Assembly (NCBI GenBank): GCA_030429765.1
Contig: JAUIER010000003.1
Span: 144,402 to 208,401 of the forward strand
DNA length: 64,000 nt
Direction of reading: 5' to 3'
Source of the DNA: a bacterium
GTDB lineage: Bacteria; Omnitrophota; Gorgyraeia; Zapsychrales; Zapsychraceae
This document shows, in pieces, positions 1-15,394 of this stretch. A model generated the notes under the pieces. It made no database searches. It was not told the origin of the DNA and worked only from the letters and a program-made list of their open reading frames with translations. Position numbers and translations under genes: made by a program. Positions within the stretch are counted from its first letter, which is position 1, and the number at the start of each line of letters is the position of its first letter.

Positions 1-269
1 AACTCAACTGGAGTGAACATCTGCCGGCCAATGCCACGCCGCTGCGGATCGGGGGCGATACCGCCATGACAGCCGCCAAGCCGGATGCCGTCGGGGGGAT
101 TGACTTCACCGGTGATCGGCTGAATATCCAGCTCAAACGCGACGCCGACGGAATCCCGCTGCCCATGCCCGTCCAACCCTTACGTCATATCCAGATCGAC
201 GGTCTCGTGCCTGTCATTCTCGACATCCGACCGATTAACGTGTTACCATTGTTTGTGGCTAGGGAGTAG
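1..269 (+). CDS. 3' end of a gene that starts upstream of the window; C-terminal ~60 aa homologous to C-terminus of the giant ORF (40908-52103)
   Basis: Frame 3 is open from nt 3 to TAG at 267-269 (LNWSEHLPANATPLRIGGDTAMTAAKPDAVGGIDFTGDRLNIQLKRDADGIPLPMPVQPLRHIQIDGLVPVILDIRPINVLPLFVARE*). High GC, like the core genome. The tail aligns with the giant protein tail ...DPVGGINFDADLIDLEIRGDHAPIELPFNPDQLQQLRIDGFSPVIIQIAPVTNLPLL. Confidence 0.55.
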   Translation, partial: LNWSEHLPANATPLRIGGDTAMTAAKPDAVGGIDFTGDRLNIQLKRDADGIPLPMPVQPLRHIQIDGLVPVILDIRPINVLPLFVARE

Positions 270-373
270 ATTAGCGGGTCGGATGTGGGGAGTAGCGAAA
301 AGATATTTTTTAGAGAAGTTTAAATTACGGGCCAGGCGGAGTCGCGTTGGTGCGAGAGAACGGTAAGAAGGAC

Positions 374-424
374 GGAGTCGCTTTGAAGCTAGCGACTCCT
401 GCCCGCGATTACTTCGTAATCGCG
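374..424. repeat. Two adjacent perfect hairpins (GGAGTCGCT-8nt-AGCGACTCC and CGCGATTA-5nt-TAATCGCG), part of a cassette-boundary repeat
   Basis: Reverse-complement stems read directly at 374-382/391-399 and 404-411/417-424. No T-tract follows, so this is not a typical intrinsic terminator. Confidence 0.6.
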
Positions 425-461
425 TTAGTGTCAGAACTCCCTAAGGTATAGCAGGGCATAA
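425..461. repeat. Boundary repeat family 'TT(A/G)GTGTCAGAACT(C/A)CC...' copy 1
   Basis: ttagtgtcagaactccctaaggtatagcagggcataa is ~80% identical to 2412-2454 (ttggtgtcagaactacccaaagtacagtattgcaggagtataa). The shorter core 'cctgcccgcga...ttggtgtcag' recurs at 1525-1583 and 1741-1763. Confidence 0.55.
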
Positions 462-499
462 ATTTAGGTCGTAATTCATTATATTAGCGAAGAGGCCTG

Positions 500-545
500 T
501 CCCAGTTTGACCGTTTATGATTAGCCGGCAAGCTGGGGCTGACCC
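500..545 (+). repeat. 46-nt direct repeat (copy 1 of 2; other copy 2938-2983) spanning 17 nt of 5' leader plus the first 10 codons (MISRQ[A/I]GADP)
   Basis: tcccagtttgaccgtttatgattagccggcaaGCtggggctgaccc vs tcccagtttgaccgtttatgattagccggcaaATtggggctgaccc: 44/46 identical. Confidence 0.8.
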
Positions 546-855
546 GTTCCCCGGAATGGTTATATACAATCAATGTGAGTTTGAAGAAACGCAAGATTTC
601 TGCTGGCACGTTAAAGAAGATAATCTGCCTAAACAAGGTGTCTATGAGTTGGCGAAATTATTGAATAAGTATCAACTTCTAGACATAGATATGATTACAT
701 TAAGCAGGCAGGAGTTGCTGGATAAATACAATATCGAGTTTTCCAAAGATCTAAATATAGATGAATTTAATCCCATTGTTGATGAATTAGAGTCAATTGA
801 AGTTGCTATGGTTGATGATATAGAGGAAGGAGATAGTTATTTTATTCATGAGTAA
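517..855 (+). CDS. hypothetical acidic protein (112 aa) with MISRQAGADP N-terminus, in the low-GC island
   Basis: ORF track. Start lies inside the 46-nt repeat. Its stop overlaps the start of the next ORF (ATGAGTAA at 848-855). Confidence 0.45.
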   Translation: MISRQAGADPFPGMVIYNQCEFEETQDFCWHVKEDNLPKQGVYELAKLLNKYQLLDIDMITLSRQELLDKYNIEFSKDLNIDEFNPIVDELESIEVAMVDDIEEGDSYFIHE

Positions 856-1132
856 TCTATACACTTGCCCCTGTTGCGGATATAAGACGTTGAATGAAAA
901 AGCTGGTGGAACATTTGAAATTTGCCCAGTTTGTTTTTGGGAAGATGATCCTGAGCAATTTGAGGATCCCGAATATGTTGGTGGTGCGAATGGGGGCGTC
1001 TCATTGAGGCAAGCACAGAAAAACTTTCTTGAACTTGGTGCCTGTTCAGAAGATATGGTAGACAAGGTAAGAAAGCCTAAAGATTATGACAAGAAAGATC
1101 CAAATTTTAAGTTGATTGGAGAGCCTGAATGA
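848..1132 (+). CDS. cysteine-rich CPCC-family small protein
   Basis: CPCCGYKTLNE...ICPVCFWEDDPEQ...YVGGANGGVSLRQAQ matches the CPCC-domain signature (recognised from memory). Translationally coupled to the preceding ORF. Confidence 0.55.
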   Translation: MSNLYTCPCCGYKTLNEKAGGTFEICPVCFWEDDPEQFEDPEYVGGANGGVSLRQAQKNFLELGACSEDMVDKVRKPKDYDKKDPNFKLIGEPE

Positions 1133-1179
1133 ATTATTGGGACGAAATTCATAGGGTTTAAATAGATTTTGCTCGTTTC

Positions 1180-1425
1180 TTAGTCTTCGGATTCCTTATG
1201 CTGCATAATATTAAAGTAAAGTCTTTTGTTTCGCATAATAACAACCCCGGGTAAAAACCATACGGTTAATACATCAATTGTAAATTCCTTAAAACCTGTG
1301 AATAGCTGAAAAAGTATTCCCGTAACAATCATCGCAACAATGATATGTGACATAAAGATTCCGTGGGATTCGCCTCCCGGAGGTACATTGAGTAATCGAT
1401 CGAGGCATCTCTTACAGAAATCCAA
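1180..1425 (-). CDS. hypothetical small membrane protein (81 aa)
   Basis: ORF track only. One hydrophobic segment (IIVAMIVTGILFQLF). Low-GC island. No homology recognised. Confidence 0.25.
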   Translation of the reverse strand: MDFCKRCLDRLLNVPPGGESHGIFMSHIIVAMIVTGILFQLFTGFKEFTIDVLTVWFLPGVVIMRNKRLYFNIMQHKESED

Positions 1426-1524
1426 AAACCAACCTGTAAGGACCCTAGTTAAGCAAGAATATTTTTGTGTAGATCGAGTTTATTGTTAATTTAGTTTTGA
1501 TGGAAGCTCCGGGGGGGGTACACC

Positions 1525-1583
1525 GAGTCGATCTGAAGCCCGCGGATCCTGCCCGCGACAGCATTTAAAAAAATTGGTGTCAG
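1525..1583. repeat. Boundary repeat family copy (gagtcgatctgaagcccgcggatcctgcccgcgacagcatttaaaaaaattggtgtcag)
   Basis: Aligns with 366-433 (gagtcgctttgaagctagcgactcctgcccgcgatta...ttagtgtcag). Confidence 0.5.
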
Positions 1584-1740
1584 GGTAAATTCAAGTAGCT
1601 AGTGCGAAGTGGGCTTTTGAGATTAATCCAGAATGGAAAAAGGCGGAGGATATATTAAAAATTGCTCAACAGAAAAATAATTTTTAGTAAAGATTATATG
1701 CTGAAGAAGAGGTTTAGATGTTCTGTGATCGCGACAACCT

Positions 1741-1763
1741 GTGGCAGTCGCATTGGTGTCAGG
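1741..1763. repeat. Boundary repeat family, short copy ending in ttggtgtcag
   Basis: gtggcagtcgcattggtgtcag shares the 10-nt core TTGGTGTCAG with 1574-1583 and 2412-2421. Confidence 0.35.
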
Positions 1764-1806
1764 ATCCTTTAAAGAGCAGGGACGCATATGTTAAGAAGGA
1801 GTAATA

Positions 1807-2277
1807 ATGGAGTCTATTGAAGCTATTTCCACGATAATAAAAGAAAATGATGAAATTTCAGACTTTTGTTTGCCTGTAGAGGTGAAAGTAATTTATGAGG
1901 CTGAGAAGGAACTTAATGTGCTACTACCAAATGATTACAGAGAGTTTCTATTAAGATTTGGTTGTGGCAATTTGGGTTCACAAGAAGTTTATGGTGTAGG
2001 GATAAAGCCAGTTGGTATACCTAGTGTCATATGGGCAACTAAAGAACAACGACTACATGAACCAAACTTTCCTCATGAGTATATCCTATTCCATAATAGT
2101 GGTTGTGGAGGTGGGCACTGTTTAGATACCTCAAGGATTTCCGGAGATGTTTGTCCTATAGTACGTTGGGAAATTGGCTGTAATGATAAGTTGCAAGCCG
2201 AAACAATTTCTGATTCTTTTTCGCAATTTATACTTAAAATATTTAAGGATGAACTACAAGGTCGGAATGATGATTAG
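1807..2277 (+). CDS. SMI1/KNR4 (SUKH superfamily) protein, immunity-protein type
   Basis: LPNDYREFLLRFGCGNLG...EYILFHNSG is the SMI1/KNR4 core signature. RBS-like AAGGAG sits 6 nt upstream of the ATG. Confidence 0.7.
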   Translation: MESIEAISTIIKENDEISDFCLPVEVKVIYEAEKELNVLLPNDYREFLLRFGCGNLGSQEVYGVGIKPVGIPSVIWATKEQRLHEPNFPHEYILFHNSGCGGGHCLDTSRISGDVCPIVRWEIGCNDKLQAETISDSFSQFILKIFKDELQGRNDD

Positions 2278-2411
2278 TGACAAATATCAATATTAAATAT
2301 TAGCTAAAAGTAGGATTGGAGAAGTCAAGACCTGCCAGTCAAATATCTAGTAATTGTTAGTATATCTGCAACGAATGCATACTAGTTTTTAAAATATTCC
2401 GTGAATATTAA

Positions 2412-2454
2412 TTGGTGTCAGAACTACCCAAAGTACAGTATTGCAGGAGTATAA
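2412..2454. repeat. Boundary repeat family copy
   Basis: See 425-461. Confidence 0.55.
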
Positions 2455-2849
2455 GCCGAAATACATTCGATAAAACGAAACTACTGTCCCTATTCGGGGG
2501 CTGTCCCGTTACTATTATGCTACCCAAATATTTATTTTATGTTGATGTAGAAGTATCTGCTGGTAAGGGGAATGAGAAAATGCCCGAAGAGTTACTGGGG
2601 GCGTATGTGAATTGTTATACTTTTGCAATCAATAAGGATGAAGCCATATTGAAAGTTAGAGGGTGTTTAGAAGAAGATAACTATAATATAATCAGCATTA
2701 ATGATTGCTATAGAGCAGATTTAGATCAATTTTCCATCGACTATGATGAGTCAACTGGAGAGCCCACGAAAAGAGATATCGAAGAAATACGAGAGTCATC
2801 TGGCGTGTTTTATGCAAATTTCTTTGGGTATGAAAAGGACGAGCAGTGA
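2412..2849 (+). CDS. hypothetical protein (145 aa), cassette ORF
   Basis: ORF track. Begins inside boundary repeat copy 2412-2454. Low GC. Confidence 0.4.
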   Translation: MVSELPKVQYCRSISRNTFDKTKLLSLFGGCPVTIMLPKYLFYVDVEVSAGKGNEKMPEELLGAYVNCYTFAINKDEAILKVRGCLEEDNYNIISINDCYRADLDQFSIDYDESTGEPTKRDIEEIRESSGVFYANFFGYEKDEQ

Positions 2850-2937
2850 TCGTTGGTGAAAACTAAAGACAAAGACTCATAAAATACGGCAACAATCAAG
2901 TTTGGAGCGTAATCCAGTTGATAGCAAATAAGACGTA

Positions 2938-2983
2938 TCCCAGTTTGACCGTTTATGATTAGCCGGCAAATTGGGGCTGACCC
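2938..2983 (+). repeat. 46-nt direct repeat copy 2
   Basis: See 500-545. Confidence 0.8.
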
Positions 2984-3917
2984 AGTAGATTACATTTTAC
3001 CTATGCAGAAAATTAATATACTTATTCAAAAATATGAATTCAATGATGAAGCCTTGATTAAGGAAATCGTCCTACTGGTGCCTAGTCAAGATTTGGTAGA
3101 GCGAATCAATGAATGTTTTCAGAAAGAGAGTGTTTACGATAAGCAAGGTGGACTTATTGAACTTATCCAAGACATTCTTTGTTGCCGAAACGGTTGGGTG
3201 ACGCAACGTTATTCCAACAATTTCCGTCGAACTTTGGATGCATCTTCATTTCCGAATATCCTAAATCAAAAAATAATTACCCATGAAAATCGGATCAATT
3301 ATCACCTGACTAGTTTCTTCAAATATAGTAATAAGAGGTATCTCCCGATATTGCAAAGAGCTTACAAGCATGCATTAAAATATGATCCTTTAGAAGTATC
3401 TATGATTGTGGGAGAAATGTACTGGTTATCCAAGGAGTTTAATTGGAATATAATCAAGAATTTGAGTCGAAGTCAGGATTTTCTGCATCGATGGGCAATA
3501 CTAGACATTTTCGGTGCTATATCCATCAACAGGGATGAGCAATATGAAAAAAAGAAATTGGGTATATTACGCCAGTTGCGAAATGATCCAAATCCGTTTA
3601 TCGCTCAAGAAGCCTCATGGCTCATTTCTGAAAGTCGGTATGTCCAGGCGTATAATAAGGGAATGCCAAAAAGTAAACCAGCAACCATAAATTATAAAAA
3701 GAAGATGCGTCTATACAGTAAGGCAAAGGCAGAAGTCGAACTTAGCTATACTTTTGGGGAAATAAAGGCAAAATACAGCCGCCTCCGAAAATATTTTCCA
3801 GAGACATTTGCTGTTCGTAACGTAATCGAAGGAATACTAATGTTTGGTTGGCAGAAATCGGTTATAGATAAAGATTATGATAAATGGTTAGCGGTGAAAA
3901 TCAAAGATACCATATAG
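2955..3917 (+). CDS. hypothetical protein (320 aa) with MISRQIGADP N-terminus
   Basis: ORF track. N-terminus encoded by the 46-nt repeat. No domain recognised. Confidence 0.5.
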   Translation: MISRQIGADPVDYILPMQKINILIQKYEFNDEALIKEIVLLVPSQDLVERINECFQKESVYDKQGGLIELIQDILCCRNGWVTQRYSNNFRRTLDASSFPNILNQKIITHENRINYHLTSFFKYSNKRYLPILQRAYKHALKYDPLEVSMIVGEMYWLSKEFNWNIIKNLSRSQDFLHRWAILDIFGAISINRDEQYEKKKLGILRQLRNDPNPFIAQEASWLISESRYVQAYNKGMPKSKPATINYKKKMRLYSKAKAEVELSYTFGEIKAKYSRLRKYFPETFAVRNVIEGILMFGWQKSVIDKDYDKWLAVKIKDTI

Positions 3918-3948
3918 GGCAATCGAAATGCTACGAACATTTTTTTTC

Positions 3949-4278
3949 TTACTTTTGATTTAACTTATTGAAGCAATTGTTACATACAATACGACATTCT
4001 TCGCTCAGGGATAGGCCATGGATTTCAATAGATTGACCATTTGCATTAAGTTCGGTTTCCAAATAATACTCTCCCGAAGGGAGTGGAGAAAAGCAGGCTT
4101 CACAAATTTCTGGAAACAGGTTTTTACACCAATCTTTACGGGTTTTGAAGCAAATGCTACAAACATAAAGATATGAGATAGTTTTTCTTGCATTGGTAAC
4201 TTCTGAAAATTGCCAAAAATTCACGGCAGTTAAATTTCCGCATATATCTGTATTCTTTCCACATTGTTCACAGTTCAT
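3949..4278 (-). CDS. hypothetical cysteine-rich protein (109 aa)
   Basis: Many CxxC pairs (CEQCGK, CSIC, CEAC, CNNC). Low-GC island. Weak RBS. Confidence 0.35.
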   Translation of the reverse strand: MNCEQCGKNTDICGNLTAVNFWQFSEVTNARKTISYLYVCSICFKTRKDWCKNLFPEICEACFSPLPSGEYYLETELNANGQSIEIHGLSLSEECRIVCNNCFNKLNQK

Positions 4279-4419
4279 TTTTTGAAGTGTATAAGATTTA
4301 TTTGAGGACCTATTATATCATCAAATTTGGTATTACTACTAATCAGCATGATGAAAATAGTCAATCTCTGGGGACTATTCAGTATTCCCCACCCCCCAAA
4401 TTTGTGCTATAATCCCGGC

Positions 4420-4722
4420 ATGGCTGAACGATTTGTACGGGTTTTCTCTAAATTGGATCTCTCCAAGATCACCCCGCAATTATTGATTTACGGTGATATT
4501 TCCGGGACGTGCGCCGGATGTCAGAAGATCGACATCAAGCTCAATCAGCCGGTGTGTCCCGAGTGCAAGAGCGAGTTCAAATTCATCGCCTTTCGCAATA
4601 TCCGGGCCCATTTACCCAAATTACAGCAGTTATCCGCGCAGCGGCCGAGTGTCACGATCATCGATTACGATGATTACAAGCGTGAACTCAGCGCGTCGAA
4701 GGCCGCGGATTTTTTTAAATAG
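4420..4722 (+). CDS. hypothetical zinc-ribbon protein (~100 aa)
   Basis: CAGCQK...CPECK zinc-ribbon pattern. GC rises at the internal ATG 4420 (MAERFVRV...), so that is taken as the start. Confidence 0.45.
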   Translation: MAERFVRVFSKLDLSKITPQLLIYGDISGTCAGCQKIDIKLNQPVCPECKSEFKFIAFRNIRAHLPKLQQLSAQRPSVTIIDYDDYKRELSASKAADFFK

Positions 4723-4764
4723 GATCCATTCCCCGCGAGTGGCCGAACCCCACAGGAGCTTACC

Positions 4765-5907
4765 GTGATCAACAAAGACCGTCTCATCAAGCTAACCCAA
4801 AAACTCATTCGCTTTGATTCATCCAACCCGCCGGGGCTGGAATACGAATGCGCCAAGTTTATCGAAAAGGATATGCGGTCGCTGGGGCTCGAGGTTAAGA
4901 CGGTGAGTTACGCTCCCAAGCGTCCGAATGTGATCGCCACGTTAAAGGGAACACTGCCGCGCGCCCAGGCTAAAAAGGAAGCGATTCTGCTGACACCGCA
5001 TTTCGATACCGTACCGGTAGGCAGCGGATGGAAGTACAAGCCATTTGGCGGCGAGATCGTCGGCGGCAAGATCTATGGACGCGGGACGAGTGATGATAAA
5101 GGCAACACGGCGGCGTGTATGGAGGTGATGCGATCGCTGGTCGAAGACGGGGTCCGTCTGAAAAAAGATGTGATCATGGCCGCGACGGTGGATGAGGAGA
5201 CCGGATCGCAGATGGGGATCATTCCATTGCTGGATAAAAAAGTCCTCACACCCAAATTCGCGCTGGTGGTGGACTCCACGGAATTCGACGCGATGATCGT
5301 GCAGAAAGGTGTTCTGCAGTTTCGCGTCCAGATCTTCGGTAAAAAAGCACACAGTGCCTATAACTGGCGCGGTGACAGCGCGATCGAAACCGCGGCGCGA
5401 TGTATCAATCGCCTCAAGAAAATCAAATTTCCACACAAAAAACACAAACTCTTACATGCCCCGTCGTTGAATGTCGGTGTGATAAACGGGGGTGACAAGG
5501 TCAATATGGTCGCGGACCTCTGCGAGTTTACCGTGGATCATCGTTTCTGTCCGGGGACGAATTATCGCGAACCGCTCAAATTGATCAAAGAGACCCTGGC
5601 CAAAGAGACCAAGAAATTCAAGATCATCCTCGATGATATCCAGCAGCCGTATGAGATCAAGGCCGATCATCCGTACGTGAAGACCTTTCTGGATGTCAAC
5701 AAACGGATGAAGGCGCCGGCGGGGATTAAAGGCAGTGAAGGCGCGACCGTGATCACCTTTTTTCAAAAGCACAAGATTCCGGCATTTGCCACCGGCTGGG
5801 GCGCGCATGGCACGCTGCATGCCAATGACGAACACATCTACATCAAATCGCTATATAAGGGAACGCAGGTGTTGGAGGCGTACGTCAAGGAATACGATCA
5901 GCTGTAG
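4765..5907 (+). CDS. M20-family metallopeptidase (ArgE/DapE-type deacylase)
   Basis: DSSNPPG...TPHFDTVP...GRGTSDDKG and DEETG metal-binding motifs. GTG start with AGGAG 7 nt upstream. Confidence 0.85.
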   Translation: MINKDRLIKLTQKLIRFDSSNPPGLEYECAKFIEKDMRSLGLEVKTVSYAPKRPNVIATLKGTLPRAQAKKEAILLTPHFDTVPVGSGWKYKPFGGEIVGGKIYGRGTSDDKGNTAACMEVMRSLVEDGVRLKKDVIMAATVDEETGSQMGIIPLLDKKVLTPKFALVVDSTEFDAMIVQKGVLQFRVQIFGKKAHSAYNWRGDSAIETAARCINRLKKIKFPHKKHKLLHAPSLNVGVINGGDKVNMVADLCEFTVDHRFCPGTNYREPLKLIKETLAKETKKFKIILDDIQQPYEIKADHPYVKTFLDVNKRMKAPAGIKGSEGATVITFFQKHKIPAFATGWGAHGTLHANDEHIYIKSLYKGTQVLEAYVKEYDQL

Positions 5908-6003
5908 ACCGATGATCGGGGTTATAAAAAATCCCGATCTTTGTAATATTCGGGCGTGTGAATTTGTGGTAGCCTAGTAAAAACTCTAAGGAAAGGCGAT
6001 ATT

Positions 6004-6924
6004 ATGGACTTAAAGGGCGAAGTCGTATTTTCATCCGGACGGCACGGAGATTATGATATCTGGTCGATCAACATGGAGAGCAAACAGGTCTCGCAGTTGA
6101 CCGAGGGATCCACCAAGAATGATTATCCGCGCTGGTCGCCGGACGGATCACAGATCGTGTATATTTCTCATCAGACCGAAGTGCCGGAGATCTGGGTGAT
6201 GGAGGCCAACGGAGACAATCCGCGGCAGGTCACCAAGAAGAACAAATGGCACGCCTCACCGTCATGGTCGCCGGACGGGCAACGCCTGGTGTTCTGCGCC
6301 AATTACGACGCGAATTTTGATGTGTACACCATCAAACTGGATGGATCGGATCTGCAGCGCGTGACCGATCATGAGGGATCGGATTTCACGCCCGAGTTTT
6401 CGCCGGACGGCAAGTCGATCGTCTACACCTCGCAGCAGGCCGGTAATGATGATATCTGGATCTTTGATATCGAATCCGGCAAATCCCGTCAGATCACCGA
6501 ATACACGGGCCGGGACTACAGCCCGACATTTTCGCCCGACGGTAAAATTCTCGCCTATGTCTCCGGGGATATCAACAAAGACGGCTCTGAGAATCTGGAG
6601 ATCTTCACGCTGGAGTTTGATACCAATACCACCTATCAGGTCACCAAAAATCCCGGCGCCGACCGTTTTGTGCGCTGGTCGCCTGACGGTAAATATCTGG
6701 TGTACTGCGGGGCCAAGGGATCGGGGCCGGAACGGCTGACCGTCCTGGAATATGAATCCGGCAAGTACAAGCAGGTGGATTTTGACCGCACCAAACTGGA
6801 CTTCGAAATGGAGGTCAAACCCAGCGGATTCGGTTTGTTCTCGTTGCTGCCGGAAAGTATCCGCCGCAAATTTTATCCCGACGATTATTTCGGTAATGAG
6901 CGCTATCCCGACTGGAAATATTAA
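6004..6924 (+). CDS. PD40/WD40-like beta-propeller repeat protein (TolB-like repeats, no signal peptide)
   Basis: Repeated W/F-SPDG motifs (RWSPDGSQIVY, SWSPDGQRLVF, FSPDGKSIVY, FSPDGKILAY, RWSPDGKYLVY). Confidence 0.8.
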   Translation: MDLKGEVVFSSGRHGDYDIWSINMESKQVSQLTEGSTKNDYPRWSPDGSQIVYISHQTEVPEIWVMEANGDNPRQVTKKNKWHASPSWSPDGQRLVFCANYDANFDVYTIKLDGSDLQRVTDHEGSDFTPEFSPDGKSIVYTSQQAGNDDIWIFDIESGKSRQITEYTGRDYSPTFSPDGKILAYVSGDINKDGSENLEIFTLEFDTNTTYQVTKNPGADRFVRWSPDGKYLVYCGAKGSGPERLTVLEYESGKYKQVDFDRTKLDFEMEVKPSGFGLFSLLPESIRRKFYPDDYFGNERYPDWKY

Positions 6925-6935
6925 TTCCTGTCCCT

Positions 6936-7628
6936 ATGTATCGAAGCATTGATTCCATCAAGATCATCAGCACGATCGCCATCCTCGATGAGCGCATCCG
7001 CAAGCGTTTCCCCAATTCCGGGCTGTCACGTGTCAGCCGTGAGCTGCTGCAGGTGGGGCGCGAGGCCAAGTTCAAAAGCGAGGCGATCTGCAAACCCAAT
7101 CTGTATCTGCGGTTTTTTGCGACCATCGCGATTCTGATCATTATCGTCGGGCTGCACGTCAGTCTGGCGCAGGTTCCGCTGGCCCATGACCACTTGAGCG
7201 TGGCCGAGTTTATCCAGGTGCTGGAGGCCGGCCTCAATGATATCGTGCTGATTGGCGCGGCCATCTTTTTTGTGGTGACATTTGAAACGCGCATCAAGCG
7301 CGAGAAATGCCTGCAGCTGCTGCACGAACTGCGGGTACTGGCCCACGTGGTTGACATGCATCAGCTGTCCAAGGATCCCGACAAGATGCTTGGAAATCCC
7401 GACGATTACACTTACCCGCCCGGTGAACGTCTCAATAGCTTTCAACTCAACCGCTATCTGGACTATTGTTCGGAGATGCTGTCGATGATCGGCAAGCTCG
7501 CCGCGCTGTACGTCCAGAATTTCAGTGATCCGGTGGTGATCGCAGCGGTCAATGAAATCGAGACCCTGACCACTGGATTGTCCCGCAAGATCTGGCAGAA
7601 AATCATGATCCTGCACACATACAAGTAA
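6936..7628 (+). CDS. hypothetical membrane protein
   Basis: Hydrophobic segments and normal composition. The overlapping antisense ORF 7026-7637 has antisense-type composition. Confidence 0.45.
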   Translation: MYRSIDSIKIISTIAILDERIRKRFPNSGLSRVSRELLQVGREAKFKSEAICKPNLYLRFFATIAILIIIVGLHVSLAQVPLAHDHLSVAEFIQVLEAGLNDIVLIGAAIFFVVTFETRIKREKCLQLLHELRVLAHVVDMHQLSKDPDKMLGNPDDYTYPPGERLNSFQLNRYLDYCSEMLSMIGKLAALYVQNFSDPVVIAAVNEIETLTTGLSRKIWQKIMILHTYK

Positions 7629-7714
7629 TCCAACCAAGATTTTGACTTCTCATCTAAATTGTGGTTGAATAGAGGCTTCCATGGAGGCTCTCCTAATCTC
7701 TACGAGGAATGGTT

Positions 7715-8893
7715 ATGAAATATCCAGATAAAAACGGACATTTTGGTGAATTCGGCGGACGCTTTCTGCCGGAAACGCTGATTGCGTTGCATGACGAGCT
7801 CGAAGGCGTGTTTAAGTCCGCCCTCAAGGATCCCCAATTCAAAAAAGAGTTTCAATATTATCTCAATGAATACGCCGGCCGGCCGACCAAGCTGTATTAC
7901 GCGGAGCGCCTAAGCCAGCGGCTGAAGACGCTCAAGGTGTACCTCAAGCGGGAGGACCTGCTGCACACCGGCGCGCATAAGATCAACAACACGCTCGGTC
8001 AGATTTTATTGGCCAAGCGCATGGGCAAGACGCGCATTATTGCCGAGACCGGGGCGGGCCAGCACGGGGTAGCCACGGCGACGGCGGCGGCCCTAATGGG
8101 GCTGGAATGCGTGATCTACATGGGTGAGGAAGATACCCGTCGTCAATCACTGAATGTGTTCCGGATGAAATTGCTCGGCGCCCAGGTGGTGCCGGTCACC
8201 AGCGGTTCAAGGACACTCAAAGACGCGATGAATGAAGCGATACGCGATTGGGTGACAAACGTCGACAAAACATTTTATATCATCGGATCGGTGGCCGGCG
8301 CGCATCCGTATCCGCTCATCGTCCGTGAATTTCAGGCGGTGATCGGACGCGAAGCCCGGCGACAGTTTCTCAAGGCCGAAAACAAGCTGCCGAATTATCT
8401 GATTGCCTGCGTGGGCGGCGGCAGCAACGCGATGGGATTGTTTCACGCCTTCTATAAAGATAAATCAGTCAAGATGATCGGCGTCGAAGCGGCCGGTCAT
8501 GGGCTCAACACCGTCGAGCATTCCGCGCCGTTAGCCAAAGGAAAGATCGGTGTGCTGCACGGCAGTAAGAGTGATTTGCTGCAGACCGAGGATGGACAGA
8601 TCCAGGTCGCGCATTCGGTCGCGGCGGGACTGGATTACCCGGGCGTCGGGCCGGAACATTCGTTTTACAAGAAATCCGGACGGGCCGAATATGTGGCGGT
8701 TGAAGATCGCGAGGCCATTAAAGGGCTCAAGCTTTTATCCGAGACCGAAGGGATTATCCCCGCGCTGGAAACCGCGCATGTGTTCGCGTATCTTCCCAAG
8801 CTCGCGCGCAAACTCAAACGTCAGCAATCGATCATTGTCTGTCTGTCAGGCCGCGGCGATAAAGACATGGAACAAATCAAAGAATTAATTTAG
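7715..8893 (+). CDS. trpB: tryptophan synthase beta chain
   Basis: [12 protein letters not shown]-lysine motif, GGGSNA. GAGGA 6 nt upstream of ATG 7715. Confidence 0.95.
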
Positions 8894-8927
8894 GACGAAG
8901 TTTTCGTCATAACCGACAGGTGCATTT

Positions 8928-9722
8928 ATGAACCGAATTGATCAGACGTTCAGCCGATTGAAACAGGATAAACGAAAGGCGTTTATCGCGTACATCACCG
9001 CGGGCGATCCCGATCTTAAGACCACCGAGCAATTGGCGCTGGCGCTGGAACAGTCAGGGGTCGATATCCTGGAACTCGGCGTGCCGTTTTCCGATCCGTT
9101 GGCCGACGGGCCGACCATTCAGGCGGCATCACAGCGCGCGCTGGCCGCGGGGACAACCTTGCCCAAGGTCCTGGATCTCGTCAAAAAGATCCGCCGGACG
9201 TCCAACATGCCGCTGGCGCTGATGATGTATTACAATCAGATTCACAGCTACGGTGAGCAAAAGTTTGTGAAGATGGTCGCCGATTGCGGTGTCGACGGGT
9301 TGATCGTTCCGGATCTTCCCCCGGAAGAGGCCACGGATTTGATCAAATATGCCAAGGCCCATGATGTGTCGACGGTATTTTTTATGGCGCCGACCACCAA
9401 GCCCGAGCGCATGACCAAGATTGCCCGGCATTCCACCGGCTTCATCTATTATGTGTCACTGACCGGGGTGACCGGCGCGCGTCAGGCCATTCCGTCATCG
9501 GTGACCCGCAAGATTCGCGAGGCCAAAAAGATTACCGACAAGCCGATCTGTATCGGATTCGGTATCTCAACCCCTGAGCAGATCCGCACGATGAAAAAGG
9601 TGGCGGATGGTGTGATTGTGGGAAGCGCGATCATCAATCAGATCGTCAAACATGCCGGTCAAAGCGACCTGGTGCCCAAGGTGTCCAAGTTTGTCCGGAC
9701 GTTGAGTCGCGCGCTGGATTAA
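8928..9722 (+). CDS. trpA: tryptophan synthase alpha chain
   Basis: ILELGVPFSDPLADGPTIQ and GFGIS motifs. Directly downstream of trpB. Confidence 0.93.
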   Translation: MNRIDQTFSRLKQDKRKAFIAYITAGDPDLKTTEQLALALEQSGVDILELGVPFSDPLADGPTIQAASQRALAAGTTLPKVLDLVKKIRRTSNMPLALMMYYNQIHSYGEQKFVKMVADCGVDGLIVPDLPPEEATDLIKYAKAHDVSTVFFMAPTTKPERMTKIARHSTGFIYYVSLTGVTGARQAIPSSVTRKIREAKKITDKPICIGFGISTPEQIRTMKKVADGVIVGSAIINQIVKHAGQSDLVPKVSKFVRTLSRALD

Positions 9723-9767
9723 ATCAAATTCCCATCAAACCCAGATTTCAGAAACGGAAAATTATTT

Positions 9768-11042
9768 ATGCAAAAAATAGAACGACTCAGTAACGGATTA
9801 CGGATTATCACGCAGAGTATGAAGGACCGCGAGAGCGCGTCGATCGGGATCTGGGTTGGTGTCGGCGGACGTTACGAAGATGACCGGGTCAAAGGCGCCA
9901 CGCATTTTTTGGAACATATCGTCTTTAAGGGCAGCGAGAAATACACCTGCGAGTCGATCAAGGAGAGTATAGAAGGCGTCGGCGGAACGCTCAACGCGTT
10001 TACATCGGAAGAGCAGACCTGCTTTTACGCCAAGATTCCCGCGGCGCATATCAACAAGACATTTGATGTGCTGGCGGATATGGTCTTTTTTCCCAATATC
10101 AAGGCGTCGGATGTCCGCAAAGAACGCACGGTGATCATTGAAGAGATCAAGATGTACCATGACCTGCCGCAGTATTTTGTGCTGGAACTCCTTGATGGAT
10201 TGATCTGGCCTGATCATCCGTTGGGCAAACAGCTGGCCGGGACCATTGATTCGGTGTCGGGGCTCAGTTCCAAGGATCTCAAGCGGTTTCATCATTCGTA
10301 CTACCGGCCGGGTAATATCGCGATATCGGCCTGCGGAAAGATCGATCATGACGCGTTTGTGCGGATGGCCAAACGCAAGCTCGGCAAGATCAAGTCGGAC
10401 GGCGAATTCAATTATCTGCCGATCACCGGTCTGCAGTCCAAGGCGCGGGTGAATTTTTACCGCAAGGACATCGAGCAGATGCATCTGGCGCTGGGCATGC
10501 CCGGTTACGACGAGAATCATCCCGATCGGCACACGCTGGGGTTGCTGAGCATCATCATGGGCGGGAATATGTCGTCGCGGCTGTTTGAAGAGGTGCGGGA
10601 AAAGAAGGGATTGGCCTACTCAATCGGGACCTTGCATAAAACAATGCACGATACCGGCGTGTTTATGGTACGCGCGGGTGTGGATAATCAAAAGATTGTC
10701 AGCGCGGTGGGGTTGATCCTCAAGGAATTCCGTAAGATCCGCAAAAACGGTGTGACGGCCGGCGAATTCAAGCGCGCCAAGGACTATATGCTCGGACAAA
10801 TCCTGCTGGGACTGGAAGATTCGATGGAGCACATGCTCTGGTTAGGCGAATCCATGATCGCCCGCGACCGCGGCCGCAGCATCAAGGATGTGATCAAGGC
10901 GCTCAATAAGATCAAAATTGCGGATATTCAGCGCGTGGCGCGCGATATTCTCGATGAAAAACGCTATAATCTGGCGATTGTCGGGCCGGTAACTGACCAG
11001 CAGGACACAGAGTTACGCAAATTGCTCGATGCGACGGTTTAA
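9768..11042 (+). CDS. M16-family zinc peptidase (pitrilysin-like)
   Basis: HFLEHIVFKG inverted zinc-binding motif (HxxEH). Confidence 0.88.
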   Translation: MQKIERLSNGLRIITQSMKDRESASIGIWVGVGGRYEDDRVKGATHFLEHIVFKGSEKYTCESIKESIEGVGGTLNAFTSEEQTCFYAKIPAAHINKTFDVLADMVFFPNIKASDVRKERTVIIEEIKMYHDLPQYFVLELLDGLIWPDHPLGKQLAGTIDSVSGLSSKDLKRFHHSYYRPGNIAISACGKIDHDAFVRMAKRKLGKIKSDGEFNYLPITGLQSKARVNFYRKDIEQMHLALGMPGYDENHPDRHTLGLLSIIMGGNMSSRLFEEVREKKGLAYSIGTLHKTMHDTGVFMVRAGVDNQKIVSAVGLILKEFRKIRKNGVTAGEFKRAKDYMLGQILLGLEDSMEHMLWLGESMIARDRGRSIKDVIKALNKIKIADIQRVARDILDEKRYNLAIVGPVTDQQDTELRKLLDATV

Positions 11043-11124
11043 GCCCCAATTTACAATTGACAACGGAATCCATATCCGTTAGACTCAAAATAACTCTAAT
11101 CATCTTGAACAAGAAGGAGAACCA

Positions 11125-11298
11125 ATGGCCGAAGAATTATCATTTTACGATGTAAAAACCAAGTCAAAATTCAATTCTTCTGATTACGAAGTCCGTGAAA
11201 AGAGCGGACGCTTTTTTGCTGTCACTAAATCTCCTCAAGGAACTCACGAATGCTGGCGAGTTCTGGGTAAAGATCAAGCTGCAAAATTAAAGAAATAA
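11125..11298 (+). CDS. small hypothetical protein (57 aa), not in the ORF track
   Basis: ATG 11125 has AAGGAG 7 nt upstream. Translation MAEELSFYDVKTKSKFNSSDYEVREKSGRFFAVTKSPQGTHECWRVLGKDQAAKLKK, stop TAA 11296-11298. Confidence 0.4.
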   Translation: MAEELSFYDVKTKSKFNSSDYEVREKSGRFFAVTKSPQGTHECWRVLGKDQAAKLKK

Positions 11299-11491
11299 GC
11301 CCTCAAATGCCTCTTTGCGCGGGACATCATCTTCGCATGGATGGCTTTCGACATAGGCCTGAATACGCCGAAATTACGTTTCAAGAAGGAATCCTGCTAT
11401 AAAAAAAGTTTCACTTACTTCTAGAACCATTGCCAAGAAAATTGCAGAATTCGCAGATGATAAGAAAGCGATCGATATCGTCGTCCTGGAC

Positions 11492-11779
11492 ATGCGTCAG
11501 CTTGTCAATTTCTGCGACTATTTTGTCGTTTGTTCCGGAAACACCGACCGGCAGGTCAAGGCGATTGCCGACGGGATAGACGAAGGTTTATACGGACTGG
11601 GTATCAAGCTGGGATCCAAAAACGCGGTCAAGCAATCCGACTGGGTTGTATTTGACACCGGGGATATTGTGATTCACGTGTTTGCCAAAAAGACACGTGA
11701 ATTTTACAATCTGGAGTACCTGTGGCAGGATGCCAAACCGGTCAAGTGGCGGAAGGAACCGCGCACACCGTCCGACTAA
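11492..11779 (+). CDS. rsfS: ribosomal silencing factor RsfS (Iojap); true start probably upstream at a non-canonical codon
   Basis: CSGNTDRQVKAIADGI...DWVVFDTGDIVIHVF matches RsfS. The in-frame region 11357-11491 encodes RsfS-like N-terminal sequence (..KKAIDIVVLDMRQL) but has no ATG/GTG/TTG. Confidence 0.8.
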   Translation: MRQLVNFCDYFVVCSGNTDRQVKAIADGIDEGLYGLGIKLGSKNAVKQSDWVVFDTGDIVIHVFAKKTREFYNLEYLWQDAKPVKWRKEPRTPSD

Positions 11780-11870
11780 AACCTCGGAACCAAATTTTTA
11801 AATCGTATTATGGTCGCAAGTGTCACATGCCCCGCTCTGCAGGCGGATGTGTACGCTTGTGATTTTTTAT

Positions 11871-13598
11871 ATGTTATCGACCTACAAAGACAACATTCAG
11901 GAATTCATCCAATCGACGCTTCAGGCGTCGTTTCCCGACGTGGCCGAATGGCCGGCCATTGAACTCGAGGTGCCGGCGGACAAAAAGCACGGACATTTTT
12001 CGTGCAATATCGCACTGCGTTGCGCCAAACCGCTTCGCAAGGCCCCGCCGGTGATCGCCGCGGATTTTGTCGGCGCGCTGGAACAGGCCCTCAACGGATC
12101 TAATCTCAACCACATTATTGACAAGATCGAGGTCAAGAATCCCGGATTCATCAACTTTTTTCTGACCAGTCAGTCACTCACTGCGACGATCGCTGAGATT
12201 TATGCGCAGGGGGAGGCGTTTGGTCAGGTTGATATCGGTCAGGGACGCAAGATCGGAATTGAGTTTGTCAGCGCTAATCCGACCGGACCGTTAAGCATCG
12301 CGCACGCGCGACAAGCGGCGGTGGGAGACGCGCTTGGAAATATCCTCAAGGCCATCGGATTTGACGTGACCAAAGAATACTACGTCAATGACGGCGGCAA
12401 TCAGATCCGTATGCTCGGTCAGTCACTGAAACTGCGAATGCTGGAGATGGTCCAGCCGGATACGGAGTTTCCCGAGGATTGCTATCAAGGCGAATACATG
12501 AAGGATATCGCGCGGGGGGTGTTTGAGTTTAAAGATCAGGTCACCGAGAAGACGCTCGCCGAGCTCAGCGATTGCCAGGCGGATATTTCCGCGTTTGACA
12601 CAGATTTTGTGAACGGCTATTCGGATGAGCAGTTTCAGGATTGGTCCAAGTCGTTGATCATGGACGATATCAAAAAAGACCTGGCGGATTTCAATGTGCA
12701 TTTTGATGTGTGGTCCCTGGAGTCTGAGGTCGCCTCACCGGAAAAGATCGTGGGATTGATCGAACGTCTCACGGCGGACGGGTATCTCTACGAAAAAGAC
12801 GGCGCGTTATGGTTTAAATCAACAGACTTCGGCGACGACAAGGATCGGGTGATCCGTAAATCAGACAGCACATATACGTATCTAACGCCGGACATTGTGT
12901 ACCATAAAAACAAATTTGAGCGCGGGTTTGATCAGGTGATCGATATTCTCGGCCCGGACCATCACGGATACATCGCGCGGATCAAGGCGTCGGCGCAGGC
13001 GCTGGGACGGCAGGCCGATGACCTGCAGGTCTTGATTGTGCAGTTAGCGACCATTTTCCGCGACGGGCAGGCTGTGTCGATGTCGACACGCCGCGGGCAG
13101 TATGTGAGCCTGCGGGAGATCCTCGACGAGGTCGGGGCCGACGTGGCCCGCTATTTCTTCCTGATGCGTCATATCAAGGCCCATCTGGAATTTGATCTGG
13201 AACTGGCCAAGAAAGAATCCTCGGAGAATCCGGTGTATTACATTCAGTATGCGTACGCCCGGATTAACAGTATCAACAAGAAGGCGTCGGAATCTGAGAT
13301 CGACTTGGAACGTCAGGATTTTTCCCGATTGTCGACCGAAGAAGAGCTGGATCTGGCCAAGCAGTTGGGTGGATACAGCGACGCGTTGGCGTATTGCCAT
13401 CAGCAATTGGATCCGTATCCGCTGGTCAATTATCTATTCGAGCTGGCCACGGTGTTTCACAAATTTTATGACCGGCAGCGTGTCATCGACAGCGACACGC
13501 AGTTGTCCGCGCAGCGGCTGGGGCTGGTCAATGCCGTCAAGACCGTGTTAGGGAACGGATTGGCTTTGCTGGGAATCAGCCGGCCGGACTCGATGTAG
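11871..13598 (+). CDS. argS: arginine--tRNA ligase
   Basis: SANPTGPLSIAHARQA (HIGH-type region) and MSTRRG (KMSKS-equivalent typical of ArgRS). Start moved to MLSTYKDNIQEF. Confidence 0.92.
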   Translation: MLSTYKDNIQEFIQSTLQASFPDVAEWPAIELEVPADKKHGHFSCNIALRCAKPLRKAPPVIAADFVGALEQALNGSNLNHIIDKIEVKNPGFINFFLTSQSLTATIAEIYAQGEAFGQVDIGQGRKIGIEFVSANPTGPLSIAHARQAAVGDALGNILKAIGFDVTKEYYVNDGGNQIRMLGQSLKLRMLEMVQPDTEFPEDCYQGEYMKDIARGVFEFKDQVTEKTLAELSDCQADISAFDTDFVNGYSDEQFQDWSKSLIMDDIKKDLADFNVHFDVWSLESEVASPEKIVGLIERLTADGYLYEKDGALWFKSTDFGDDKDRVIRKSDSTYTYLTPDIVYHKNKFERGFDQVIDILGPDHHGYIARIKASAQALGRQADDLQVLIVQLATIFRDGQAVSMSTRRGQYVSLREILDEVGADVARYFFLMRHIKAHLEFDLELAKKESSENPVYYIQYAYARINSINKKASESEIDLERQDFSRLSTEEELDLAKQLGGYSDALAYCHQQLDPYPLVNYLFELATVFHKFYDRQRVIDSDTQLSAQRLGLVNAVKTVLGNGLALLGISRPDSM

Positions 13599-13615
13599 TC
13601 AGGAGTTGCACGTTT

Positions 13616-15301: not shown

Positions 15302-15303
15302 AA

Positions 15304-15340
15304 ATAGACACACCGTTTGAGGTGTGTCTAAATTTTATTT
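15304..15340. terminator. bidirectional intrinsic terminator between recJ (+) and rpmB (-)
   Basis: Perfect 9-bp stem AGACACACC-gtttga-GGTGTGTCT, flanked by A-run upstream and T-runs downstream. Confidence 0.65.
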
Positions 15341-15394
15341 TGCTGAAATGTAATGAAATTTTTAAGCGGGACGAATTCAGGTCAGGATCGACGA

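What the first reader, a model, noticed from the sequence alone, without database searches (positions are those of the whole stretch)
500..2983. 46-nt direct repeat giving two different ORFs the same 5' leader and first ten codons (MISRQ[A/I]GADP)
Copies at 500-545 and 2938-2983 are 44/46 identical and cover 17 nt upstream of the ATG plus 29 nt of coding sequence. The proteins then diverge completely. This fits module shuffling by homologous recombination at a conserved 5' segment, or a shared translational or regulatory element such as an RNA structure or binding site.
Basis: seen in the sequence. Interest (0 to 1): 0.55.

Follow-up and report, generated by a model that had tools for sequence, protein, structure and literature searches.

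The report
Shared hairpin leader in gene-cassette island
The repeat is real, but it is a non-coding stem-loop belonging to a small family of junction sequences between unrelated, probably horizontally acquired small genes in an Omnitrophota genome; the "shared first ten codons" are most likely a by-product of an ATG in the hairpin loop, not a conserved protein start.

Summary
The 46-nt direct repeat (500-545 / 2938-2983, 44/46 identical, 32 nt exact) is confirmed and is far beyond chance. It is the best-kept part of a longer junction element: 76-86 nt are shared between these two copies, and a third, truncated copy lies at 2482-2512. All three sit just upstream of unrelated ORFs in a 4.1-kb AT-rich island (about 270-4395; 36% GC against 51%). 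The island carries SUKH/SMI1-KNR4 and CPCC genes and is absent from the same locus in the closest relative.

The repeat is GC-rich. It folds into a 15-bp stem-loop with the ATG at the apex, and both substitutions keep base pairing (G-C to G-U, U-G to U-A). The only homologue of each ORF lacks the MISRQxGADP start: one begins at Met17 of the 320-aa ORF, and the other has a different, longer N-terminus. The decapeptide is therefore not a conserved protein feature.

Independent metagenome contigs carry a 100% identical 1.4-kb block of the island. That block is bounded on the left by a second junction motif (TTGGTGTCAG) and on the right by this repeat, and it has a different left neighbour. This supports module shuffling at the junction repeats.

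No integrase, canonical attC, Rfam family or copies in other collections were found. This is a modest, incompletely resolved finding.

The parts
500..545 (+). Repeat copy A, GC 57%. ATG 517 lies at the hairpin apex. It is followed 10 nt later by an in-frame ATG at 556 (Met14 of the 112-aa ORF).
2938..2983 (+). Repeat copy D, GC 52%. ATG 2955 lies at the hairpin apex. The conserved start of the downstream protein is ATG 3003 (Met17).
501..537 (+). Stem-loop of copy A. Pairs: 501-509 with 529-537, 511-513 with 526-528, 515-517 with 522-524. Loop UGAU at 518-521. Bulges at A510, U514 and C525. Copy A can add two more pairs (499-500 with 538-539).
   Evidence: RNA fold dG -29.5 kcal/mol, z -2.8; 15/15 pairs standard in both copies
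2939..2975 (+). The same stem-loop in copy D. The two substitutions give G-U and U-A in place of G-C and U-G.
   Evidence: RNA fold dG -19.6 kcal/mol, z -2.8
2482..2512 (+). Third, truncated copy (junction C). The flanks and stem base are the same (CUGUCCC ... GGGGCUGUCCCGUUAC), but the upper 31 nt of the stem-loop are replaced by 6 nt. It lies 10 nt upstream of ATG 2517 of the 110-aa ORF.
   Evidence: cmsearch 15.2 bits, E 0.05; GGGGCTGWCCC occurs 3 times in the window against 0.01 expected
470..499 (+). Weaker upstream extension of the A-D similarity; pairs with 2908-2937.
425..461 (+). 5' module of junction A, starting with the core TTAGTGTCAG. It is homologous to 2412-2454 (junction C).
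   Evidence: local alignment z 6.4; alignment A1
2412..2454 (+). 5' module of junction C, starting with the core TTGGTGTCAG.
1574..1583 (+). Core TTGGTGTCAG (junction B1). The block shared with metagenome contigs L001 and L002 starts 6-11 nt upstream of it (1563-1568).
1753..1762 (+). Core TTGGTGTCAG (junction B2), 44 nt upstream of the SUKH ORF.
372..408 (+). GC-rich motif M2 (GAGTCG..TGAAGC..TCCTGCCCGCGA), copy 1. It lies left of a core motif.
   Evidence: D16; z 8.2
1522..1558 (+). Motif M2, copy 2. It lies left of core 1574.
404..424 (+). Perfect 9-bp hairpin ending directly before core 425. Analogous hairpins of unrelated sequence lie at 1731-1751 and 2393-2409, before cores 1753 and 2412.
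   Evidence: 3 of 6 junctions against a 4.2% background, P about 0.0014
270..4395 (.). AT-rich accessory island between a conserved upstream gene X (stop at 267-269) and the Zn-ribbon gene (ATG 4420). It is absent from the syntenic locus of the closest relative.
517..855 (+). 112-aa ORF with no family assignment. Similarity to its only homologue starts right after the repeat. It overlaps the CPCC gene by 8 nt.
848..1132 (+). Cys_rich_CPCC gene.
   Evidence: Pfam PF14206, E 2e-32
1807..2277 (+). SUKH / SMI1-KNR4 gene.
   Evidence: Pfam SUKH_5 1e-18, SMI1_KNR4 2e-15
2517..2849 (+). 110-aa ORF with no family assignment; called as 89 aa in the NCBI record.
2955..3917 (+). 320-aa ORF as annotated. 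The conserved protein is 3003-3917 (304 aa); it is all-helical in a low-confidence model.

Best explanation
The 46-nt repeat is a non-coding element. It is the conserved stem-loop core of a roughly 90-135-nt junction sequence that precedes at least three unrelated genes in a small, strain-variable island of acquired genes in a Candidatus Omnitrophota genome. Two of those genes belong to families usually read as toxin-immunity genes.

The element was copied along with, or used during, the gain and reshuffling of gene modules in the island (inferred). Its 32 nt of perfect identity and the neighbouring TTGGTGTCAG junction motif mark the points where modules are joined (partly shown).

On the mRNA it forms a 5'-proximal hairpin just upstream of the genes. 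This hairpin most likely affects transcript stability, processing or translation initiation (inferred).

The shared MISRQxGADP start arises because the hairpin loop happens to contain an ATG that reads in frame into both downstream genes, and gene callers pick it. It is not a conserved part of either protein (shown for the 320-aa ORF, strongly suggested for the 112-aa ORF).
For: 1. The repeat is real, extends to 76-86 nt, and has a third truncated copy. All copies are on the + strand, 10-19 nt upstream of an ORF's first internal ATG.

2. Composition: the repeat is 52-57% GC, while the ORF bodies immediately after it are 34-36% GC.

3. P0002, the only homologue of the 320-aa ORF (55% identity), aligns from its Met1 to Met17 of the window ORF. 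It has an in-frame stop upstream and no repeat.

4. P0011, the only homologue of the 112-aa ORF (46% identity), has a different N-terminus about 26-32 residues longer. Convincing similarity starts just after the repeat.

5. Both copies fold into the same 15-bp stem-loop (z -2.8 each). The only two substitutions are G-C to G-U and U-G to U-A, so 30/30 cells are paired, against 20-57% when the partners are slid. The same two changes fall in positions 1 and 2 of one codon and give Ala to Ile. That is the opposite of what purifying selection on a peptide predicts.

6. Island context: the island is AT-rich, carries SUKH and CPCC genes, and is absent between gene X and the Zn-ribbon gene in the closest relative L015, where the gap is 57 nt.

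7. Mosaicism: junction A shares different parts with junctions B, C and D. Logan contigs L001 and L002 carry window 1563/1568-2969 at 99.9-100% identity, but L001 has a methyltransferase gene to the left. Contigs L001, L002 and L003 end or start with a 30-nt (k-1) overlap inside the repeat. The 112-aa and CPCC proteins are on record only from the NCBI contig.
Against: Only three copies are seen, all in one genome or population. Searches of other collections found none, so conservation and function cannot be judged from comparative data.

Two one-sided, wobble-preserving substitutions are weak evidence for structure. Roughly one chance in four would give this under no constraint.

Both ATGs are in frame with the downstream genes and no stop intervenes. 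My estimate of the chance of this is about 0.04-0.1. Neither internal ATG (556, 3003) has a visible Shine-Dalgarno sequence, so real use of the repeat's ATG is not excluded, particularly for the 112-aa ORF, which is 5'-truncated relative to its homologue.

Contig ends inside the repeat would also arise simply from the intragenomic duplication of the 32-mer, so the right-hand breakpoint is not independent proof of recombination.

No recombinase is visible. The window starts inside gene X, so the upstream side is unknown.
Confidence: 0.55

Rival explanations
1. The repeat is a site-specific recombination site of an integron-like or rAID-like cassette system. In this reading a host recombinase, encoded outside the window, inserts and excises gene cassettes at structured junction sites, consisting of a hairpin plus TTGGTGTCAG and/or the 46-nt hairpin.
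For: The array consists of small unrelated genes in one orientation, with skewed GC and repetitive intergenic sequences. This matches the description of rAID-1 clusters (Ross et al. preprint 10.1101/471110). The core TTGGTGTCAG occurs 4 times, only in the island and only on the + strand. Perfect hairpins of unrelated sequence end 0-2 nt before the core in 3 of 6 junctions (P about 0.0014). The block shared with L001 and L002 starts 6-11 nt from a core, and in L001 it joins the natural 3' end of a methyltransferase gene.
Against: No recombinase is found in the island or in the 13 kb downstream. No canonical R''/R' attC pair occurs on either strand. The 105-139-nt junction elements are not significantly structured as single-stranded DNA (z -0.5 to -0.8). 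The conserved sequence lies to the right of the putative crossover, whereas in integrons it lies to the left. The junction elements are heterogeneous.
Confidence: 0.15
2. The repeat is a portable translation start. It supplies an ATG and a short N-terminal peptide to cassettes that arrive without their own initiation region, so the decapeptide is really made. This would resemble cassettes that use start codons in the integron attI region.
For: Both ATGs are in frame with the downstream ORFs. The 112-aa ORF lacks about 26-32 N-terminal residues present in its homologue, so it may need a new start. The ATG sits in or next to the 4-nt apical loop, where it is accessible. The NCBI record's gene calls use these starts. 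The internal ATGs 556 and 3003 lack a Shine-Dalgarno sequence.
Against: ATG 517 and ATG 2955 have no Shine-Dalgarno sequence either, whereas the SUKH gene has a clear AAGGAG. The 320-aa ORF keeps its full homologous N-terminus from Met17. The third copy of the element has lost the ATG-bearing upper stem and still precedes an ORF. The only variation in the peptide is non-synonymous, with two hits in one codon.
Confidence: 0.15
3. The repeat is a passive scar. Sequential displacement or duplication by ordinary homologous recombination copied a piece of an intergenic region, and the hairpin and the ATG have no function.
For: Identity decays away from a 46-nt core. Junctions share different fragments of junction A. 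Orphan immunity arrays built by sequential displacement are known (PMC5361080, title and abstract seen). Only three copies exist.
Against: A 46-nt core at 96% identity flanked by about 60% identity suggests either selective retention of the hairpin or recent gene conversion. Both substitutions preserve pairing. The hairpin base and flanks are also kept in the truncated third copy.
Confidence: 0.2
4. The two ORFs are eroded recent paralogues, or the repeat is a chance match or an assembly artefact.
For: None beyond the repeat itself.
Against: The E-value is 3e-16. The proteins are unrelated, and each has its own distinct homologue. Independent Logan assemblies from two samples reproduce copy D and its flanks base for base.
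Confidence: 0.02

Closest known systems
rAID-1 (recombinase-associated acquired interbacterial defence) gene clusters of Bacteroidales (Ross et al., bioRxiv 10.1101/471110)
   Same: Both are arrays of small genes that include families linked to toxin immunity (SUKH here). Both show GC content skewed relative to the host, repetitive intergenic sequences, and signs of gene acquisition and strain variability.
   Different: No XerD-family recombinase is seen here, though the upstream side lies outside the window. The phylum is different (Omnitrophota). The island is only about 4 kb with 5-7 genes. The repeats are unrelated in sequence. Only two of the genes have an immunity-type family assignment.
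Integron cassette arrays and attC sites
   Same: Both have unidirectional, promoter-poor small ORFs separated by structured repeats. Cassette order differs between strains. Composition differs from the host genome.
   Different: There are no RYYYAAC...GTTRRRY cores, no element-wide imperfect palindrome, and no intI gene. The conserved sequence is 5' of the ORF and to the right of the putative junction.
REP / BIME-type repetitive extragenic palindromes
   Same: Both are short GC-rich imperfect palindromes in intergenic DNA that form mRNA hairpins. A relative's syntenic spacer holds two REP-like palindromes that share the words CAGTTTG and CTGACC (L018 9466-9541).
   Different: There are only three copies in 64 kb, all inside one island and all in one orientation. 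The copies are embedded in a longer non-palindromic repeat. No genome-wide distribution has been shown.
Orphan immunity gene arrays formed by sequential displacement (Vibrio cholerae T6SS auxiliary clusters, PMC5361080)
   Same: Both consist of immunity-type genes accumulated downstream of a conserved gene, with leftover homologous segments at the junctions.
   Different: There is no effector gene or effector 3' fragment at the junctions, and no secretion system is identified. The junction repeats here are non-coding and structured.

Membership tests
Integron (cassette array with attC sites) | attC with inverse core R'' (RYYYAAC) and core R' (GTTRRRY) 50-150 nt apart | tested here: not met
   A regular-expression scan of both strands of 1-4500 found 0 pairs.
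Integron (cassette array with attC sites) | The site folds as an imperfect palindrome over its whole length in single-stranded DNA | tested here: not met
   ssDNA folds of the 105-139-nt junction elements give z -0.8 to +0.2. Only the local 46-nt hairpin stands out.
Integron (cassette array with attC sites) | Adjacent intI tyrosine recombinase and attI site | tested here: inconclusive
   None is found in the island or in the 13 kb downstream. The DNA upstream of gene X lies outside the window.
rAID-1 type immunity gene cluster | Genes from polymorphic-toxin immunity families | tested here: met
   SUKH_5 / SMI1_KNR4 scores E 1e-18 and Cys_rich_CPCC scores E 2e-32. The link between the CPCC family and immunity rests on my own knowledge and was not checked. 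The other ORFs have no family assignment.
rAID-1 type immunity gene cluster | GC content skewed relative to the surrounding genome | tested here: met
   The island is 34-41% GC against 51% for the rest of the window.
rAID-1 type immunity gene cluster | Repetitive intergenic sequences between the ORFs | tested here: met
   Three repeat sets link junctions A-B, A-C and A-D, and the core motif occurs 4 times.
rAID-1 type immunity gene cluster | Conserved XerD-family tyrosine recombinase at the head of the array | tested here: inconclusive
   None is seen in the window next to the island. The 88 residues of gene X visible at the head of the array have no Pfam or NCBIfam match. In relative L015, gene X is a 201-aa protein of unknown function, inspected by eye only.
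REP / BIME elements | Many dispersed copies in the intergenic regions of the genome | tested here: not met
   A covariance-model search with filters off over all 64 kb found copies only in the island. The remaining 190 kb of the source contig and the rest of the genome could not be searched.
Group II intron remnant | Match to the domain V/VI or D1-D4 covariance models | tested here: not met
   Rfam found nothing in window 200-620 at E up to 10 or in 1-4800. In contrast, the relative L018 scores 54.6 and 42.2 bits in the syntenic spacer. Only an 18/21-nt similarity links window 345-365 to that intron.
Known RNA families (Rfam 15) | Score at or above the gathering threshold | tested here: not met
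   There were no matches in the whole window.

The most novel reading that the evidence does not exclude
Omnitrophota may carry a previously undescribed cassette-capture system that is not an integron. In this reading, short acquired genes, including toxin-immunity genes, are inserted at the 3' ends of host genes. The junction sites would consist of a sequence-variable hairpin followed by a TTGGTGTCAG core. Each cassette would bring or receive a structured leader, the 46-nt hairpin, that supplies its expression signals and even a start codon. The system would be served by a recombinase encoded elsewhere in the genome.
Probability: 0.12. Interest if true: 0.65.

Novelty: new variant of a known kind. 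Interest (0 to 1): 0.3.

Why it matters
Practically, the finding shows that two annotated protein N-termini in this genome are probably wrong. An ATG inside a repeated hairpin is taken as the start codon.

Biologically, it documents a small, strain-variable island of immunity-type genes, with structured junction repeats, in Omnitrophota. This is a phylum of ultra-small, possibly host-dependent bacteria whose mobile genetics are almost unknown.

If the junction motifs prove to be sites of a dedicated recombinase, this would extend integron- or rAID-like gene capture to a new phylum with a new type of site. If they do not, this is an ordinary mosaic accessory region with a REP-like hairpin.

Tried and rejected
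1. Further copies by exact DNA pattern. GACCGTTTATGATTAGCCGG gave 0 hits in the GTDB representative genomes and 0 in the JGI metagenomes. TTGACCGTTTATGATTAGCC and TTGGTGTCAGAACTNCCNAA gave 0 hits in IMG/VR. The two-anchor pattern TTGGTGTCAG N70-100 GGGGCTGWCCC gave 10 hits in the JGI metagenomes. That is about the number I expected by chance, and none resembled the element internally.

2. Other cassettes by the N-terminal peptide MISRQxGADP. A padded profile returned 'no candidate shares three words'. It did not even recover the two known carriers, so this is a technical failure and not a negative result.

3. Exact look-up of the 112-aa and CPCC proteins found no contigs.

4. tRNA or tmRNA fragments as attachment sites: none found.

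5. Rfam at gathering and at permissive thresholds: nothing relevant.

6. Sigma-70 promoter and intrinsic terminator scans gave counts at the shuffle level, and the repeat was not flagged.

7. attC scan: none found.

8. Group II intron origin of the junctions: only a marginal 18/21-nt match, so rejected as an explanation of the repeat.

9. PADLOC, PHROGs and NCBIfam gave no informative assignment for the unassigned ORFs.

10. AlphaFold models of both ORFs, each built from a 2-sequence alignment, had low confidence (pLDDT 55-56). Fold searches were therefore not run.

11. The hairpin covariance model found nothing in 111 kb of relatives' and homologues' loci.
Full report
OBSERVATION. The repeat is present as described. 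Positions 500-545 and 2938-2983 are 44/46 identical (blastn-short E 3e-16). The first 32 nt are exact, and the two differences are adjacent (532-533 GC against 2970-2971 AT). ATGs at 517 and 2955 open ORFs of 112 and 320 aa that begin MISRQAGADP and MISRQIGADP. BLASTP finds nothing else significant in common between them.

The repeat is larger than reported. Ungapped identity is 77% over 86 nt (460-545 / 2898-2983). A gapped local alignment over 470-545 / 2908-2983 scores z = 33 against shuffles.

SETTING. The two copies lie in an AT-rich island of about 4.1 kb (roughly 270-4395; 34-41% GC, against 51% for the remaining 59 kb). The island holds these ORFs:
- the 112-aa ORF (517-855);
- a Cys_rich_CPCC gene that overlaps it by 8 nt (848-1132);
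- an 81-aa minus-strand ORF (1180-1425);
- a SUKH/SMI1-KNR4 gene (1807-2277);
- a 110-aa ORF (2517-2849);
- the 320-aa ORF (2955-3917);
- a Cys-rich 109-aa minus-strand ORF (3949-4278).

NCBIfam, PADLOC and PHROGs add nothing useful.

The organism is a Candidatus Omnitrophota bacterium. The neighbouring M20-peptidase (ArgE-like) gene is 79% identical to one in MAG JAGOSC010000007, and all other hits but one are also Omnitrophota MAGs.

In that closest relative (L015), the gene that ends at window 269 ('X') and the Zn-ribbon gene that starts at window 4420 are separated by only 57 nt. The island is therefore an insertion specific to this lineage.

THE REPEAT BELONGS TO A FAMILY OF JUNCTION SEQUENCES. 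Local alignment of all intergenic segments of the island shows that the first junction, A (270-560), is a composite:
- 372-408 matches 1522-1558 (motif M2, z 8.2);
- 425-461 matches 2412-2454 (z 6.4);
- 470-545 matches 2908-2983.

The decamer TTGGTGTCAG, or TTAGTGTCAG, occurs four times, at 425, 1574, 1753 and 2412. All four are in the island and on the + strand. Weaker GTTGGTG copies lie at 352 and 2852.

A covariance model built from the two hairpin copies and run without filters over the whole window recovers the two copies at 83 bits. Its next best hit (15.2 bits, E 0.05) is 2482-2512. There the flanks and the stem base are kept (CUGUCCC ... GGGGCUGUCCCGUUAC), but the upper 31 nt are replaced by 6 nt.

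Three unrelated ORFs (112, 110 and 320 aa) are therefore each preceded, at 10-19 nt from an ATG, by a version of the same element in the same orientation.

Perfect hairpins of unrelated sequence (404-424, 1731-1751, 2393-2409) end 0-2 nt before the core motif in three of six junctions. Only 4.2% of island positions have such a hairpin, giving a binomial P of about 0.0014.

STRUCTURE. As RNA, both copies fold into the same stem-loop. The pairs are 501-509 with 529-537, 511-513 with 526-528, and 515-517 with 522-524, with a UGAU loop. The energies are -29.5 and -19.6 kcal/mol for the 71-nt contexts, with z -2.8 in both cases. ATG 517/2955 sits at the apex: the A is the last stem pair and the UG is in the loop.

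The only two substitutions convert G505-C533 to G-U and U506-G532 to U-A. All 30 pair cells are standard, against 20-57% when the partners are slid. This is only weak support for selection on pairing, because the changes are one-sided and about one chance in four would give the same result. Each copy carries G-U pairs, which fits RNA better than DNA.

The whole 105-139-nt junction elements are not significantly structured as single-stranded DNA.

IS THE DECAPEPTIDE A PROTEIN FEATURE? The search of 5.8 billion proteins found one homologue for each ORF.

P0002 (312 aa, 55% identity) aligns from its Met1 to Met17 of the 320-aa ORF. In its contigs an in-frame TGA lies nine codons upstream of its ATG, and there is no trace of the repeat.

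P0011 (138 aa, 46% identity) has an unrelated N-terminus that is 26-32 residues longer. Convincing similarity to the 112-aa ORF starts just after the repeat.

GC content falls from 52-57% in the repeat to 34-36% immediately after it. The two nucleotide differences fall in codon positions 1 and 2 of one codon and change Ala to Ile.

The low-confidence AlphaFold models leave residues 1-15 of the 320-aa ORF, and the first 30 or so residues of the 112-aa ORF, as low-confidence coil without secondary structure.

The NCBI record nevertheless calls both genes from the repeat's ATG. I conclude that the shared 'first ten codons' are an open reading frame created by the ATG in the hairpin loop, not a conserved N-terminus.

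One caveat applies. Both ATGs are in frame with the downstream genes, which I estimate has a chance of about 0.04-0.1. Neither internal ATG has a Shine-Dalgarno sequence. The 112-aa ORF is truncated relative to its homologue. Use of the repeat's ATG as a substitute start therefore remains possible.

EVIDENCE FOR SHUFFLING. Exact-protein look-ups retrieved Logan contigs from two other samples.

L001 (ERR3428548) matches window 1563-2969 at 99.9% identity, and L002 (SRR24442552) matches 1568-2969 at 100%. Left of position 1563, L001 continues into a GC-rich methyltransferase gene instead of the CPCC cassette. The Methyltransf_23 domain ends at residue 203 of 223, so the island block joins the natural 3' end of that gene. 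The switch point is 6-11 nt upstream of the core TTGGTGTCAG at 1574. L002 starts exactly there.

L003, which is 100% identical to window 2940-15907, starts inside the repeat. L001 and L002 both end at 2969, a 30-nt (k-1) overlap with L003.

The 112-aa and CPCC proteins are on record only from the NCBI contig.

A 1.4-kb module (an empty spacer, SUKH and the 110-aa ORF) therefore exists with at least two different left neighbours. The left boundary is direct evidence. The right boundary is only suggestive, because the intragenomic 32-mer duplication by itself would break a k = 31 assembly.

WHAT IT IS NOT. The tests excluded or failed to support the following:
- Integron: there is no canonical attC core pair on either strand. 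There is no integrase in the island or in the 13 kb downstream.
- Known RNA family: there is no Rfam match.
- tRNA-derived attachment site: no tRNA or tmRNA is present.
- Abundant REP element within this window: no further copies were found.
- Eroded paralogy: the two ORFs have distinct homologues.

No copy was found in the GTDB representatives, the JGI metagenomes, IMG/VR or the relatives' loci. The attempt to find further cassettes through the peptide motif failed for technical reasons and is not a negative result.

MOST LIKELY MECHANISM. What is shown:
- a non-coding, GC-rich stem-loop element is repeated at the 5' side of unrelated genes in a lineage-specific, strain-variable island;
- module boundaries coincide with the junction repeats;
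- the decapeptide is absent from the homologues.

What is inferred:
- the junction elements were spread by, and now promote, recombination between modules. The 32 nt of identity is around the length usually considered sufficient for low-frequency RecA-dependent exchange (my own knowledge). An exchange between the two copies would delete 2,438 bp and place the 320-aa gene behind junction A;
- the hairpin acts on the mRNA, in stability, processing or start-site presentation.

Whether a dedicated recombinase recognises the hairpin-plus-TTGGTGTCAG junctions cannot be decided without the rest of the genome.

COMPARISON WITH KNOWN SYSTEMS. [quoted passage not shown] Three of those four features are met here, and the recombinase is not seen. 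The island also resembles integron arrays, REP elements and orphan-immunity arrays formed by sequential displacement, but it fails the defining tests for the first two.

VERDICT. Novelty is modest: a new variant of structured junction repeats in an accessory gene array, in a little-studied phylum. The evidence comes from a single population.

Noticed in passing
L018 9240-9458 (relative DAOWBD010000002.1), spacer between the homologues of gene X and the Zn-ribbon gene: An ORF-less, internally deleted group II intron lies here (RF02001 54.6 bits, RF00029 42.2 bits). It sits just after a terminator-like hairpin, in the spacer that holds the island in the window. Window 345-365 matches its domain V/VI junction at 18/21 nt (z 4.5, marginal).
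   Followed up: partly
L018 9466-9541: Two tandem REP-like palindromes, CCWAAACTGACC-N5-GGTCAGTTTWGG, lie directly downstream of that intron. They share the words CAGTTTG and CTGACC with the window's hairpin repeat. No other copy occurs in the fetched loci.
   Followed up: partly
window 404-424, 1731-1751, 2393-2409: Perfect hairpins of unrelated sequence end 0-2 nt before the junction core TTGGTGTCAG in 3 of 6 junctions (P about 0.0014). The pattern suggests a structure-plus-core site, but no known type was matched.
   Followed up: partly
L001 109-780 (Logan ERR3428548): A methyltransferase gene reads through its natural end into the island block, giving a C-terminal tail ...KIGVRVNSSS. It is not known whether this is a second locus in the same genome or a strain variant.
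   Followed up: partly
window 40908-52103: A giant ORF of 3,731 aa. Its last 70 or so residues (51774-51980) are 39% identical to the C-terminus of gene X at window 3-269. A weak Fic/DOC match (23.1 bits against a cutoff of 24) lies about 200 residues from the end.
   Followed up: partly
L005-L014 and L022-L025: The only homologues of the 320-aa and 112-aa ORFs come from the same sample series (SRR140923xx, GCA_020050275.1). They sit in ordinary, non-island contexts, next to an HtrA-like protease gene and a CdsD_C-like gene respectively.
   Followed up: no
window 26094-26123 and 58739-58768: A 30-nt inverted repeat, 90% complementary and 32.6 kb apart. Each arm contains the small palindrome AGCCAC-N4-GTGGCT (I2).
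   Followed up: no
window 59683-59762 and 60475-60554: An 80-nt direct repeat at 70% identity and 792 nt apart. It probably reflects adjacent paralogous coding sequences (D2).
   Followed up: no
window 1574-1752: An 'empty' 179-nt unit bounded by two TTGGTGTCAG cores, with no ORF of 40 aa or more on the + strand.
   Followed up: no
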